64,000 nucleotides of DNA from Planctomycetota bacterium. GTDB lineage: Bacteria > Planctomycetota > PLA2 > JAEUHO01. Within the stretch, counting starts at the first letter, position 1. Every line of letters begins with the position of its first letter. The stretch spans positions 112,184-176,183 of the forward strand of contig JACKGW010000004.1 of assembly GCA_020631815.1 (NCBI GenBank), given 5' to 3'. Below the pieces are notes generated by a model. That model saw only the letters and a list, made by a program, of their open reading frames with translations, was not told the DNA's origin and did not search any database. The position numbers were made by a program, and so were the translations under genes. Below, in pieces: positions 54,319-61,286 of the stretch.

Positions 54319-55239
54319 CTAGGGCAGGTCCTCGAGCGCGGCTTCGTAGCTGGCGATGTCGTGGGCAGCACCCAGCGAGCCGAGCCGCGCGGCACGCTCC
54401 AGCAGGAGGGCCAGGACTCCTTCCAGTCCCTTGGCGAGTGCGCTCAAGGCAGCCAGCGGGTCGTCCAGCTCGAGCTCGCGCAGGATGGACTGGATCAACG
54501 AAGCCGTTCCAAGCTGGGCGTCGGTGACGTCGTGAAGCCCGCCAGCACTCGGCCTCCGTACGCCTGGCACATGCTGGTACCCCCACTCCCCTAGCGGCAG
54601 GTGAGGTACCGGATCGTGCGCTGCGGCAAGGGCGAGGTAGCGATCCCCCAGGGCGTTGCGTGCGGATGTCGCCCAGGCCCCATCTCCCACGCGAGGCTGG
54701 CCGAAGGTCGCCACGCCCTGCAGGGGCACGTGCGTCGTACGCAGCAGATCGAGTGCGGCGAGGGTCGCGAGTGCACCGCCGAGGCTGTGCCCGGTGATCC
54801 ACAATCGCAGGGCAGGGTCCGCTGCCTGCTTTGCGACAAGCTCGGCCTTCAGGGCTTCCCAGTCGTAGCTCCCGCTTCCCGTGACGGTGAGCCCTCGATG
54901 GAACCCTGCATGGCGGCGCCCGCCACCTGTGTCGCTCAGGAGCACGGCCCGGGCATTGAGGACCCAGTCGTTCACCCTCATCTCGCTCCCGCGGAAGGCG
55001 AGGACGACCCAGCCATCCTGCTGCAGGACCAGCAGCTGGGTGTCGGGGTCCACCCGCGTACGGGGCGAGCACGATCGCAGGTCGACGGGAACCGTGCCCA
55101 GCGCCTCTTCGAGTGCTGCAGGTCCGAGGTAGGCGAGGTGACTTGCCCGCGCGAGGGCGCGCAGGACATCGCCGTGGCCCACGGGGAGCGGGCTCGCCAC
55201 CGCCATGCCGTGGGGATCCGTCCATCGAAGCTGGCTCAT
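54319..55239 (-). CDS. Class-3 (fungal-type) lipase family alpha/beta hydrolase
   Basis: The start is set at MSQLRWTD. Has the nucleophile elbow GHSLGGALA preceded by VVLAFRGS and followed by conserved Asp/His regions (FGQPRVGD ... HD). This is the Lipase_3 pattern. The start overlaps the stop of the upstream patatin-like gene. Confidence 0.7.
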   Translation of the reverse strand: MSQLRWTDPHGMAVASPLPVGHGDVLRALARASHLAYLGPAALEEALGTVPVDLRSCSPRTRVDPDTQLLVLQQDGWVVLAFRGSEMRVNDWVLNARAVLLSDTGGGRRHAGFHRGLTVTGSGSYDWEALKAELVAKQAADPALRLWITGHSLGGALATLAALDLLRTTHVPLQGVATFGQPRVGDGAWATSARNALGDRYLALAAAHDPVPHLPLGEWGYQHVPGVRRPSAGGLHDVTDAQLGTASLIQSILRELELDDPLAALSALAKGLEGVLALLLERAARLGSLGAAHDIASYEAALEDLP

Positions 55240-61000: not shown

Positions 61001-61286
61001 GGAAGGACGTGGCCTGGATGGACTCGTTGATGCTGGACTCCTTGCGGAGGTCCCCGAACTGAAGGCGCTTGTCGCCTCCAACCCGCTCGTCCATGGGCGT
61101 GAACAGGGGAGCGCTGATCGTCACGAAGCCGACCGCGTCGTCCGCCCGGTCTTCCCCGAACCCCAGGCGTGAGGACAGGGGTCGCTCGCTGAGGCAGGCG
61201 GGGAGAGCCAGCAGGCCCAAGGTCGTCGTCAGCCAGCGCGCCCTGCGGCTCCACCGCCCCTGCCTACCCTCTACGGCTCTGGTCAT
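58008..61286 (-). CDS. Giant lipoprotein (about 1092 aa) with no recognisable domain, helical/coiled-coil rich
   Basis: The start is set at MTRAVEGRQGRWSRRARWLTTTLGLLALPAC, a signal peptide with lipobox LPAC. Codon arithmetic places the start at about 61286, although direct counting in the printed sequence came out one position off (61287). The rest is a long Ala/Leu/Glu/Arg-rich helical sequence with Cys-containing patches (ECACCAPPPKPPGK, CQRCAVRRMLAGCECQ). The first 44 codons of the track ORF, upstream of the lipobox Met, are rejected. The minus-strand ORF 61264..61647 and the plus-strand ORFs opposite it are shadows. Confidence 0.6.
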   Translation of the reverse strand: MTRAVEGRQGRWSRRARWLTTTLGLLALPACLSERPLSSRLGFGEDRADDAVGFVTISAPLFTPMDERVGGDKRLQFGDLRKESSINESIQATSFRSDTLQYDMLRLRLAAKIAGAVISTEETVDPTSDSGDSPVRKTSRKFDSPGEVSPPNAEPLRAEVLEKLVALLAREPQAALKLPMDERATLIAAMKTYMVNLEEYYNAEGFDFDTGLQGRYVPYKMHFTVTAEPGWFSRFNKYDAVLQVSLYASPPGTAPSIELDAECACCAPPPKPPGKSGDEIHILHVSPIESAQAVDEFSAALLERALALSVSAPLGDSASAAGALDRLQATARRLQGLRAHKTLAVGFPADNAMRIRFLAQRAGTEEGRDLQVVSRVLTATVLVPTRLAGYLDEQLLLDTAGASFADYRKLIAGERVRGSAAARVTRSLAEPLRRLAKEAGEEAGAGLGDYGASVLDELASAIEGGFDPAFLAPTAFNMLRAEVTDAELKAAFSALPPGEDSGSSQTTGFADAVTEFKRVLTSPESLTNFLRDAVGETASSSGRPADSEKAAVLSLLARGVEDYPQLLEEEVPSSRASRWRGYAAMTLIATIYRAMLFDRGIEDVEDAIDKQSRDVRGLLACQRCAVRRMLAGCECQLDVQAWFAPSVFGSSGLVSPPRDYLFAIDPSDRRVRAVDVGGVRTAPIPPWLGPLDDPARILRTQGTYNAPFAREAATQVAVAAAAQAKDRADKALTDAKSAPGVAVLLEALTTCKKRLSEHRETLQQAEAALDSDLLQRFRALDAAAEQADSKSIVLQREAAREWYGARFELARLQANGDANGSAVESALATYRDKRSAFVKAVGAEAELLQKALRQAYVAVQAITVECESLSREPAVVRVAAADASAKAASQQLAKATKEAELAEGAVLGRGHASVLVEYESPSVLLDAEECLVHRADTWLRLRYADTSDGDGAAGAGSTSSGGTVWFPMPSGHHTRVLEAKDFDLSLAVRTQSNGLAQADSINILVELLVLPKGQRPEDAWMGGAARSAVSTVVVTPATKDMIVTSNGEPSRSVQAPAPAAKSDSPTTPKSAGAVQLELKGIEVDLVPPALQK

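What the first reader, a model, noticed from the sequence alone, without database searches (positions are those of the whole stretch)
54319..61286. Three-gene operon of a giant domain-less lipoprotein, a membrane-split patatin and a class-3 lipase: candidate undescribed lipid-targeting system
Three consecutive minus-strand genes are tightly packed. There is a 6-nt gap between the lipoprotein stop and the patatin GTG start. The patatin stop and lipase start overlap by 4 nt. Two mechanistically different lipolytic enzymes are therefore co-expressed with a 1092-aa lipoprotein that has no recognisable domain. The module sits between core metabolic genes (larB, carA, purA on one side, ppk1 on the other), as an inserted accessory block would. 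Patatin-like phospholipases are established membrane-destroying effectors in abortive-infection defence systems such as CBASS, and in bacterial predation. No signalling or sensing partner is annotatable here, so the sensor role may fall to the giant lipoprotein.
Basis: partly seen in the sequence, partly recalled or inferred. Interest (0 to 1): 0.82.

Follow-up and report, generated by a model that had tools for sequence, protein, structure and literature searches.

The report
Lipoprotein, membrane patatin, lipase gene cluster
Three tightly packed genes (a large lipoprotein of unknown fold, a phospholipase split by a membrane-spanning insert, and a small lipase) are really there. They are a gene cluster seen only in this species, not a conserved three-part system, because relatives of each gene sit elsewhere without the other two.

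Summary
On the minus strand lie a 1092-aa lipoprotein (58008-61286), a 921-aa patatin-like hydrolase (55236-58001) 6 nt downstream, and a 306-aa class-3 lipase (54319-55239) overlapping it by ATGA.

- **Patatin:** it resembles cPLA2. Its two catalytic halves (GGGxR, Ser114; Asp741-Gly) are separated by about 8 predicted membrane helices.
- **Lipase:** an ordinary Lipase_3 with no signal peptide.
- **Lipoprotein:** no Pfam, NCBIfam, PDB or significant fold match. Its family is rare (95 representatives in 1.84 billion proteins).
- **Composition:** the block is atypical (GC3 0.77-0.79 against 0.90-0.94 in the flanks), which fits an acquired accessory block.

The "system" reading fails its own test. 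None of 7 other lipoprotein-family loci carries a patatin or a lipase. None of 80 membrane-patatin loci from other species carries the lipoprotein, and only 2 carry a Lipase_3. There is no PADLOC hit and no signalling gene.

The membrane-split patatin family is widespread (at least 575 loci), is already named "patatin-like phospholipase family protein" by PGAP, and usually stands alone. Its occasional partners differ by lineage: a soluble patatin, a GMC oxidoreductase, or ThsB-like TIR genes.

My best reading is a laterally acquired pair of cytoplasm-facing lipid deacylases plus an unrelated envelope lipoprotein. Interest is modest.

The parts
58008..61286 (-). Gene for a 1092-aa lipoprotein of a rare, uncharacterised family. 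It has a signal peptide and a lipobox (Cys31). A conserved N-terminal alpha/beta region spans about residues 50-390. It is followed by a helical region and a conserved 'FAPS...PPR...IPPWLGP' beta segment (about 633-705). Long confident helices (709-908) and a C-terminal beta-sandwich (910-1036) complete the protein.
58002..58007 (-). 6-nt spacer between the lipoprotein stop and the patatin GTG start.
   Evidence: Coordinates. No terminator-like or promoter-like site inside the block.
55236..58001 (-). Gene for a 921-aa integral-membrane patatin/cPLA2-like acyl hydrolase.
   Evidence: Pfam Patatin hit on residues 78-187. 72 homologues, most with PF01734. Invariant G82-G83-G84-x-R86, S114 and G742, and nearly invariant D741, in alignment A1. 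AF2 model: pLDDT 70, pTM 0.78. The best PDB fold matches are human cPLA2 1cjy and GIVD 5iz5, E 1e-4 to 5e-4, probability 1.0.
57441..57770 (-). N-terminal catalytic half of the patatin domain (residues 78-187). It carries the oxyanion motif SGGGLR (81-86) and the nucleophile Ser114 in T-I-S-G-G.
56523..57452 (-). Membrane insert (residues about 184-493), with about 8 predicted transmembrane helices. The positive-inside rule places both catalytic halves in the cytoplasm.
   Evidence: Hydropathy peaks and loop charges. Eight long helices, H184-224 through H473-490, in the AF2 model. The topology is inferred, not shown.
55302..56219 (-). C-terminal catalytic half plus conserved C-terminal region (residues about 595-900). 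It carries the dyad Asp741 in S-D-G-A-H and the conserved FPHTP motif (869-873).
54319..55239 (-). Gene for a 306-aa class-3 lipase with no signal peptide or membrane helix. Predicted triad: Ser152 (GHSLGG), Asp209 (HDPVPH) and His223 (GYQHV). Its ATG overlaps the patatin stop (ATGA, 55236-55239).
   Evidence: Pfam Lipase_3, E 1.1e-23. PDB fungal class-3 lipases, E about 1e-13. 629 homologues, the closest outside the species 37% identical. Motif positions. Ser152 and Asp209 lie inside the aligned part of the PDB match (query residues 75-226). The triad residues themselves are my reading of the motifs by analogy with fungal class-3 lipases.
61287..61447 (.). 161-nt divergent intergenic region between the lipoprotein start and the ppk1 start. 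It is the presumed promoter region of the block.
   Evidence: Sequence. No sigma-70-type consensus was found, which is uninformative for this phylum.

Best explanation
This is a species-restricted, compositionally foreign three-gene cluster, not a dedicated three-component system.

Its functional core is most likely the translationally coupled pair patatin + lipase.

1. The 921-aa protein is an inner-membrane acyl hydrolase of the patatin/cPLA2 superfamily. Its Ser114-Asp741 dyad is assembled from two cytoplasmic half-domains held on a bundle of about 8 helices. This would place the active site at the cytoplasmic face of the membrane, where it would deacylate inner-leaflet glycerophospholipids.
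2. The soluble cytoplasmic class-3 lipase (Ser152/Asp209/His223) would then hydrolyse the remaining acyl esters, such as lysolipids or acylglycerols.
3. Together they would serve turnover or remodelling of membrane lipid.

The upstream lipoprotein is an elongated, coiled-coil-rich envelope protein of a rare family. It occurs on its own in other genomes, so it is probably co-transcribed here rather than mechanistically coupled.

Shown: gene structure, family memberships, catalytic motifs, fold, lack of conserved synteny, and atypical composition.

Inferred: topology, substrates, the sequential action of the two enzymes, and the physiological role.
For: Enzyme identities:
- Pfam, alignment and fold results for the patatin.
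- Lipase_3 with an intact triad and no export signal.
- An even number (about 8) of helices, with K/R-rich loops on the side of both catalytic halves.

A second lipolytic enzyme beside a membrane-split patatin recurs in unrelated lineages, with different partners.
- Lipase_3 overlaps the patatin start in a Gemmataceae MAG (L028, gene order reversed). It sits divergently in a betaproteobacterium (L072).
- A soluble 490-aa patatin lies directly upstream in seven genome loci, six from Nitrospira MAGs and one Nitrospiraceae MAG. It is also present on two unclassified metagenome contigs, L176 and L177.
- Two immediate Lipase_3 neighbours in 80 loci compare with about 0.04 expected. That assumes about one such gene per 4000 genes (rough Poisson P about 8e-4).

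Other points:
- The closest Lipase_3 homologue outside the species sits in a metabolic context: alpha/beta hydrolase, HAD, Dak1/Dak2.
- The lipoprotein family is never linked to patatin or lipase elsewhere.
- GC3 is 0.77-0.79 against 0.90-0.94 in the flanks.
- The window is otherwise ordinary chromosome, with tricorn protease, TonB receptor, UvrD and purine/pyrimidine genes.
Against: - No experiment bears on activity, substrate or topology.
- The patatin-lipase pairing is rare (2 of 80). The three paired lipases are not each other's closest relatives, so the link could still be coincidence.
- Within +/-8 kb, 2 hits in 1.15 Mb against 0 in about 1.03 Mb of control loci is not significant on its own.
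- A 6-nt spacing between the lipoprotein and the patatin argues for co-expression, and hence possibly for a functional link that I discount.
- Two family members sit among ThsB-like TIR genes on rhizobial plasmids. So a conflict role for the family cannot be excluded.
- Low GC3 can also reflect low expression rather than foreign origin.
Confidence: 0.5

Rival explanations
1. Abortive-infection or conflict effector module. The membrane-embedded patatin, helped by the lipase, is held inactive and, once triggered, destroys the cell's own membrane (or a competitor's). The trigger is sensed by the patatin itself, by the lipoprotein, or by a gene encoded elsewhere.
For: - Patatin phospholipases are established effectors, for example CapV in CBASS (PMC12480259, listed).
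- Family members on a Mesorhizobium and a Sinorhizobium plasmid are surrounded by TIR genes that match Thoeris ThsB models at E 1e-49 to 1e-64.
- A 2025 preprint lists phospholipases and membrane proteins among predicted Thoeris effectors (10.64898/2025.12.03.692087).
- The family is patchy across phyla, occurs on megaplasmids, and has atypical composition here.
Against: - No PADLOC match for any of the three proteins.
- No TIR, cyclase, STAND or other sensor gene in the block, the flanks or the whole window.
- The block lies among housekeeping genes, not in a defence island.
- 80 loci from other species show no recurrent defence partner.
- No homologue in 50,697 phage records.
- Homologues of the lipoprotein 'sensor' are never next to an effector.
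Confidence: 0.17
2. Pure juxtaposition. Three functionally unrelated accessory genes happen to be packed into one transcription unit in this species, and the two hydrolases act on different, unrelated substrates.
For: - The triad is found only in this species.
- Each gene's relatives are overwhelmingly found without the other two.
- No neighbour family is conserved around the patatin.
Against: - The ATGA overlap suggests translational coupling of patatin and lipase.
- All three genes share the same unusual GC3, which suggests a common history.
- Lipolytic partners recur next to membrane-split patatins in several lineages.
Confidence: 0.23
3. Trans-envelope lipid-handling machine. The periplasmic coiled-coil lipoprotein cooperates with the inner-membrane patatin to move or degrade envelope lipids. 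It would contact the patatin's periplasmic loops, much as periplasmic adaptor proteins contact inner-membrane pumps.
For: - 6-nt spacing and co-orientation.
Against: - Those hits are low-Z matches to generic coiled coils, on a model with pTM 0.44.
- There is no co-occurrence in 7 + 80 other loci.
- The patatin's predicted periplasmic loops are short.
Confidence: 0.08

Closest known systems
Cytosolic phospholipase A2 (human GIVA 1cjy, GIVD 5iz5) and the patatin/FabD-like acyl-hydrolase superfamily (PF01734)
   Same: It shares the GGGxR oxyanion motif, the Ser-Asp dyad with Asp in a DG[AG] motif, and the alpha/beta fold. cPLA2 is the best structural match (Foldseek E 1e-4). As in cPLA2, a large insertion (the 'cap') lies between the Ser and Asp halves.
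   Different: The insertion here is a bundle of about 8 transmembrane helices (residues about 184-493) instead of a soluble cap, and there is no C2 domain. The nucleophile elbow reads T-I-S-G-G (family consensus S-T-V-S-G-G), not G-x-S-x-G. The full protein scores just below Pfam's gathering cut-off because only the N-terminal half aligns. No PDB sequence relative exists.
CapV/CapE patatin effectors of CBASS, and predicted phospholipase effectors of Thoeris-type TIR systems
   Same: They share the patatin catalytic machinery and act on the cell's own membrane. Two homologues of this membrane-split family sit among ThsB-like TIR genes.
   Different: CapV is small and soluble and is encoded next to a CD-NTase. 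Here there is no cyclase or TIR gene and no PADLOC match. The architecture is also different: 921 aa and integral to the membrane.
Fungal and bacterial class-3 lipases (Thermomyces/Rhizomucor lipases, PF01764)
   Same: Clear Pfam and PDB sequence matches, the GHSLG nucleophile motif, and an Asp and a His in the expected places.
   Different: It has no signal peptide, so it is probably cytoplasmic. It is at most 37% identical to anything outside the species. It carries an extra Leu/Ala-rich helical tail of about 80 residues after the catalytic core.
Periplasmic adaptor (membrane-fusion) lipoproteins such as AcrA
   Different: Only generic coiled-coil similarity at low Z. It has no lipoyl or beta-barrel MFP domains by Pfam, no transporter or TolC-like partner nearby, and is three times larger.

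Membership tests
Patatin/cPLA2-like acyl hydrolase (PF01734 superfamily) | Glycine-rich oxyanion-hole motif G-G-G-x-[RK] | tested here: met
   S81-G-G-G-L-R86. G82, G83, G84 and R86 are invariant in 36 homologues.
Patatin/cPLA2-like acyl hydrolase (PF01734 superfamily) | Nucleophilic Ser in a G-x-S-x-G elbow | tested here: inconclusive
   Ser114 is invariant and followed by G115-G116-G117. However, position -2 is Thr (T-I-S-G-G; family consensus T-V-S-G-G), so the canonical first Gly is missing.
Patatin/cPLA2-like acyl hydrolase (PF01734 superfamily) | Dyad Asp in a D-G-[AG] motif | tested here: met
   D741-G742-A743. G742 is invariant and D741 is conserved in at least 90% of sequences.
Patatin/cPLA2-like acyl hydrolase (PF01734 superfamily) | Pfam model matched above the gathering score | tested here: not met
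   25.4 bits against 27.7. Only profile positions 1-95 of 191 align, because the domain is split by the membrane insert. Most homologues do carry a recorded PF01734 hit.
Patatin/cPLA2-like acyl hydrolase (PF01734 superfamily) | Patatin/cPLA2 three-dimensional fold | tested here: met
   AF2 model with pTM 0.78 and catalytic parts at pLDDT 80-95. Foldseek top hits are cPLA2 1cjy and 5iz5, E 1e-4 to 5e-4, probability 1.0. Patatin, PlpD and CapE give short local matches.
Patatin/cPLA2-like acyl hydrolase (PF01734 superfamily) | Lipid acyl-hydrolase activity | not testable with these tools
   Needs an enzyme assay.
Class-3 lipase (PF01764) | Pfam model above the gathering score, and homology to solved class-3 lipases | tested here: met
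   84.2 bits against a cut-off of 22. 35 PDB sequences match, the best at E 5.8e-14.
Class-3 lipase (PF01764) | Ser-Asp-His triad (G-H-S-x-G nucleophile) | tested here: met
   GHSLGG at 150-155, HDPVPH at 208-213, GYQHV at 220-224. Ser152 and Asp209 lie inside the aligned part of the PDB match (query residues 75-226). The assignment of the triad residues is by motif analogy.
Bacterial lipoprotein | Signal peptide ending in a lipobox with an invariant Cys | tested here: met
   MTRAVEGRQGRWSRRARWLTTTLGLLALPA-C31. The Cys is invariant in all 10 aligned family members. Pro at position -2 is unusual. Lipidation itself is not testable here.
CBASS (CapV-type) | Adjacent CD-NTase cyclase gene, and an effector that matches known CapV models | tested here: not met
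   No PADLOC hit for any of the three proteins. The genes within 10 kb on either side are ppk1 and housekeeping genes.
Thoeris-like TIR signalling system | ThsB-type TIR gene next to the effector | tested here: not met
   A jackhmmer search seeded with ThsB-like TIRs from L178 finds nothing in the window or in 80 patatin loci. The feature is met only for two plasmid homologues, L178 and L183.
T6SS lipase effector/immunity pair (Tle/Tli) | Linkage to vgrG, hcp or PAAR genes, and a small periplasmic immunity lipoprotein | tested here: not met
   No such Pfam families among the genes within 10 kb or the large ORFs of the window that I scanned. The lipoprotein is 1092 aa and its homologues stand alone. 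Not every ORF of the window was scanned.
   0 of 7 lipoprotein loci have a patatin or a lipase. 0 of 80 patatin loci have the lipoprotein, and 2 of 80 have a Lipase_3.

The most novel reading that the evidence does not exclude
The membrane-split patatin family would be a self-contained, membrane-resident suicide or attack effector. Its conserved cytoplasmic C-terminal region would sense a signal, and on rhizobial plasmids that signal would be TIR (ThsB)-made nucleotides. The window's patatin-lipase pair would then be a stand-alone or remotely triggered version of such an immune module, and the co-transcribed lipoprotein might relay envelope damage.
Probability: 0.12. Interest if true: 0.65.

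Novelty: new variant of a known kind. Interest (0 to 1): 0.3.

Why it matters
As a "new lipid-targeting system" the triad does not hold up, so it should not be carried forward as such. Two things remain of value.

1. **The membrane-split patatin family.** These are cPLA2-like patatins whose catalytic domain is split by a bundle of about eight helices. They occur in at least 575 species-level genomes across many phyla and are named only generically. I found no paper on them in two full-text searches. Their variable partners (lipases, a second patatin, GMC oxidoreductases, ThsB-like TIRs) make them a reasonable target for work on bacterial membrane-lipid turnover, or on phospholipase effectors of immunity.

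2. **The lipoprotein family.** It is rare (about 95 clusters at 50% identity) and has no detectable fold relative.

Neither point is surprising enough to rank high.

Tried and rejected
- **Defence-system assignment.** PADLOC gave nothing for the three proteins.
- **Domain or fold for the lipoprotein.** Nothing significant from any of these:
  - Pfam and NCBIfam on the protein and on all 10 family members.
  - A PDB profile search.
  - The afdb50 library was unavailable.
- **Conserved neighbours of the patatin.**
  - All-against-all clustering of ORFs from 80 loci produced only shadow ORFs of the patatin gene itself and Nitrospira-specific synteny.
  - Pfam counts of the nearest neighbours showed nothing recurrent except Patatin in 9 of 76 and GMC oxidoreductase in 4 of 76.
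  - That neighbour picking was heuristic, one ORF per side, and can miss genes.
- **Insertion test by synteny.** A metagenome scan with ppk1 returned only relatives at most 61% identical, with no larB/carA linkage. The test is therefore uninformative.
- **Mobile-element hallmarks.** No flanking direct repeats beyond chance-level short matches, and no tRNA near the block. No integrase or transposase appears among the called genes within 10 kb.
- **Promoter and terminator scan.** No hits. This is uninformative for a 70% GC planctomycete.
- **Phage origin.** No patatin homologue in the phage collection.
- **XopAP.** The type III effector hit for the lipase (19 bits against a cut-off of 400) is generic Lipase_3 similarity, so I rejected it.
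- **Literature.** Two full-text searches for transmembrane or cPLA2-like bacterial patatins found no description of this architecture.
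Full report
**1. Observation**

The three minus-strand ORFs exist exactly as described.

| Gene | Coordinates | Length | Junction |
|---|---|---|---|
| Lipoprotein | 61286 to 58008 | 1092 aa | n/a |
| Patatin-like protein | GTG 58001 to 55236 | 921 aa | 6 nt after the lipoprotein stop |
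| Lipase | 55239 to 54319 | 306 aa | ATG overlaps the patatin stop (ATGA) |

- The lipoprotein begins MTRAVEGRQGRWSRRARWLTTTLGLLALPAC. Its Cys31 is invariant in the family alignment.
- No terminator-like or promoter-like site lies inside the block. That scan is weak evidence for a 70% GC genome.
- ppk1 lies divergently upstream (61448-63595).
- An AIRC/LarB-like gene, carA, purA, uppS, cdsA, phoH and ybeY follow on the same strand.
- The identical arrangement occurs in MAGs GCA_041398635.1 and GCA_041398685.1 and in several metagenome contigs. NCBI labels them 'Planctomycetota bacterium'.

**2. The three proteins**

*Lipase.*
- It is a clear class-3 lipase: Pfam E 1.1e-23 and fungal lipase structures at E about 1e-13.
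- It carries GHSLGG (150-155), HDPVPH (208-213) and GYQHV (220-224).
- It has no signal peptide or membrane segment.
- It is generic: 629 homologues, with nothing outside the species above 37% identity.

*Patatin.*
- Pfam matches only residues 78-187, at 25.4 bits against a cut-off of 27.7.
- Alignment with 35 homologues shows invariant G82-G83-G84-x-R86, S114 and G742, and nearly invariant D741, plus a conserved C-terminal region. The two catalytic halves are therefore both present and about 600 residues apart.
- Between them lie six strongly hydrophobic segments, and eight long helices in the AF2 model (pLDDT 70, pTM 0.78).
- Loop charges fit an 8-helix topology with both termini in the cytoplasm. 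This puts the active site on the cytoplasmic face, which is an inference.
- The best structural matches are human cytosolic PLA2 (1cjy) and GIVD cPLA2 (5iz5). These also carry a large insert between Ser and Asp.
- The nucleophile elbow is T-I-S-G-G rather than G-x-S-x-G.

*Lipoprotein.*
- There is no Pfam, NCBIfam or PADLOC match, including when all ten family members are scanned. There is also no PDB sequence match.
- The AF2 model is of modest quality (pLDDT 63, pTM 0.44). It shows an N-terminal alpha/beta region, long helices and a C-terminal beta-sandwich.
- Foldseek gives nothing at E <= 0.001.
- An exhaustive profile search finds only 95 representatives among 1.84 billion clusters. The family is rare and uncharacterised.

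**3. Is the triad a system?**

*Contexts of the lipoprotein family* (loci L007-L015).
- None contains a patatin or a Lipase_3. I confirmed this with my own HMMs.
- The neighbours vary: S8, M28 and M14 peptidases, GGDEF, MscS, ABC1 kinase.
- One locus has two tandem paralogues.

*Contexts of the patatin family.*
- A scan of species-representative genomes found at least 575 loci in Acidobacteriota, Nitrospira, Proteobacteria, Bacteroidota, Planctomycetota and others.
- In the 80 loci retained (1.15 Mb), none has a lipoprotein-family gene.
- Only two have a Lipase_3.
- Clustering finds no recurrent neighbour, apart from shadow ORFs and Nitrospira synteny.
- The four closest relatives (L016-L019, E 1e-79 to 1e-82) sit next to IspG, protoglobin, TrmO, VWA and TPR genes.

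**4. What does recur**

- **Lipase_3.**
  - In a Gemmataceae MAG (L028), the packed operon runs cytochrome c protein, GMC oxidoreductase, Lipase_3, membrane-split patatin. The lipase stop overlaps the patatin start.
  - In a betaproteobacterial MAG (L072), a Lipase_3 lies divergently next to the patatin.
- **Soluble patatin.** A soluble 490-aa patatin lies directly upstream of the membrane-split one in seven genome loci and on two metagenome contigs.
  - Six of the genome loci are Nitrospira MAGs and one is a Nitrospiraceae MAG (L030, L032, L034, L035, L037, L039, L044).
  - The two metagenome contigs, L176 and L177, are unclassified.
- **GMC oxidoreductase.** It is the nearest upstream neighbour in 4 of 76 loci, and it is nearby on a Rhizobium plasmid. 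In one metagenome protein, P0077, it is fused to the patatin.
- **A loose theme.** "Membrane-split patatin plus a second lipid enzyme" therefore exists, with different partners in different lineages.
  - Two immediate Lipase_3 neighbours in 80 loci compare with about 0.04 expected. This is a rough estimate that assumes one such gene per 4000 genes.
  - The paired lipases are not each other's closest relatives (49.8 and 38.9 bits, against about 100 bits for unlinked homologues). This suggests independent recruitment, or chance.
- **Closest unlinked lipase.** The closest unlinked homologue of the lipase lies with an alpha/beta hydrolase, a HAD phosphatase and Dak1/Dak2. That is a metabolic setting.

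**5. The defence question**

Against a defence role:
- PADLOC is negative.
- There is no homologue in phage records.
- No TIR-like gene is present in the window.
- The surrounding window is ordinary chromosome.

For a defence role:
- tblastn against plasmids found 29 records, mostly rhizobial megaplasmids, where PGAP names the protein "patatin-like phospholipase family protein".
- In two of the six contexts I opened, the patatin is flanked by several TIR genes (Mesorhizobium L178 and Sinorhizobium L183). These match Thoeris ThsB models at E 1e-49 to 1e-64, and no ThsA was seen.
- A 2025 preprint predicts phospholipases and membrane proteins among 29 putative Thoeris effector types.

A conflict role for part of this family is therefore plausible. 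Nothing ties the window's copy to it.

**6. Composition**

- The block has the lowest GC in the window: 0.657-0.670 against 0.69-0.75 for almost every other 2-kb bin. One bin, at 22001-24000, dips to 0.676.
- GC3 is 0.778, 0.769 and 0.792 for the three genes. It is 0.896-0.942 for ppk1, AIRC, carA, purA, uppS, cdsA, phoH and ybeY.
- In a survey of the whole window, the three genes are the lowest among credible genes.
- This supports a common, probably foreign, origin or weak codon adaptation.
- There are no flanking repeats and no nearby tRNA, and no integrase among the called genes within 10 kb.
- Synteny with relatives could not be tested.

**7. Conclusion**

| Reading | Confidence |
|---|---|
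| Acquired, species-restricted operon whose core is a cytoplasm-facing membrane phospholipase coupled to a cytoplasmic lipase, acting in lipid deacylation or remodelling; the lipoprotein is an unrelated envelope protein | about 0.5 |
| Mere juxtaposition of three unrelated genes | about 0.23 |
| Defence or abortive-infection effector | about 0.17 |
| Trans-envelope machine that involves the lipoprotein | about 0.08 |

- The enzymes belong to known kinds.
- The membrane-split architecture is a variant that databases annotate only generically. I could not find it described in the literature.
- Interest is modest (0.3).

Noticed in passing
L178 (Mesorhizobium plasmid NZ_AP023248.1, locus 1900-7800) and L183 (Sinorhizobium plasmid NZ_CP133151.1, locus 130-8930): Homologues of the membrane-split patatin are flanked by three or four TIR genes. 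In L178 three of these match Thoeris ThsB models at E 1e-49 to 1e-64. The L183 TIRs that I scanned match ThsB or SAVED_TIR models only weakly (about E 1e-9 to 1e-11). No ThsA was seen, and in L178 paralogous small hypothetical genes are present. This may be a Thoeris-like system with a membrane patatin as effector. A 2025 preprint already predicts phospholipase effectors for Thoeris types.
   Followed up: partly
L028 49-10134 (Gemmataceae MAG); L181 (Rhizobium plasmid); protein P0077: GMC oxidoreductase, often with a c-type cytochrome, recurs next to membrane-split patatins. In P0077 it is fused to one (PF05199 + PF00732 + PF01734). L028 has a packed operon: cytochrome c protein, GMC oxidoreductase, Lipase_3, patatin. 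This hints at an oxidative lipid or alcohol pathway in some lineages.
   Followed up: partly
L030, L032, L034, L035, L037, L039, L044 (Nitrospira and Nitrospiraceae MAGs); L176 and L177 (unclassified metagenome contigs): A soluble patatin gene of about 490 aa lies directly upstream of the membrane-split patatin, and in L176/L177 a conserved 375-aa gene of unknown function precedes it. This is a conserved tandem-patatin arrangement specific to that lineage.
   Followed up: partly
L001 and L002, 7779-10004 (window 55236-57461): The NCBI gene call for the patatin in both MAGs is 741 aa, starting 180 codons downstream. That removes the GGGxR motif and Ser114, so no Patatin Pfam hit is on record and the protein is labelled hypothetical. 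The lipoprotein is also called with differing starts (702-1092 aa), although the ORF is identical.
   Followed up: yes
L007 6537-12796; L008 10001-13224: The lipoprotein family occurs as two tandem paralogues (1080 and 932 aa) in one metagenome contig. In another MAG it appears split into a 674-aa and a 295-aa ORF. This may be a frameshift or a pseudogene.
   Followed up: no
L072 2044-6811: In a betaproteobacterial MAG, the Lipase_3 next to the patatin is followed on the same strand by a 184-aa ORF of unknown function. After that comes a 1143-aa zinc-ribbon / adenylate-guanylate cyclase / AAA_16 / TPR protein, which is a STAND-like signalling architecture.
   Followed up: no
window 44388-45881 (-) and window 22001-24000: A 497-aa ORF with no Pfam domain has reduced GC3 (0.82) relative to its neighbours. 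A second local GC dip (0.676) lies over a TonB-dependent receptor gene (21875-24451) and a VWA/HEAT protein gene (19812-22187).
   Followed up: no
window 36352-39438 (-): A 1028-aa protein combines an N-terminal FHA domain with a C-terminal CAP (cysteine-rich secretory protein) domain. This is an unusual pairing, and I did not examine it further.
   Followed up: no
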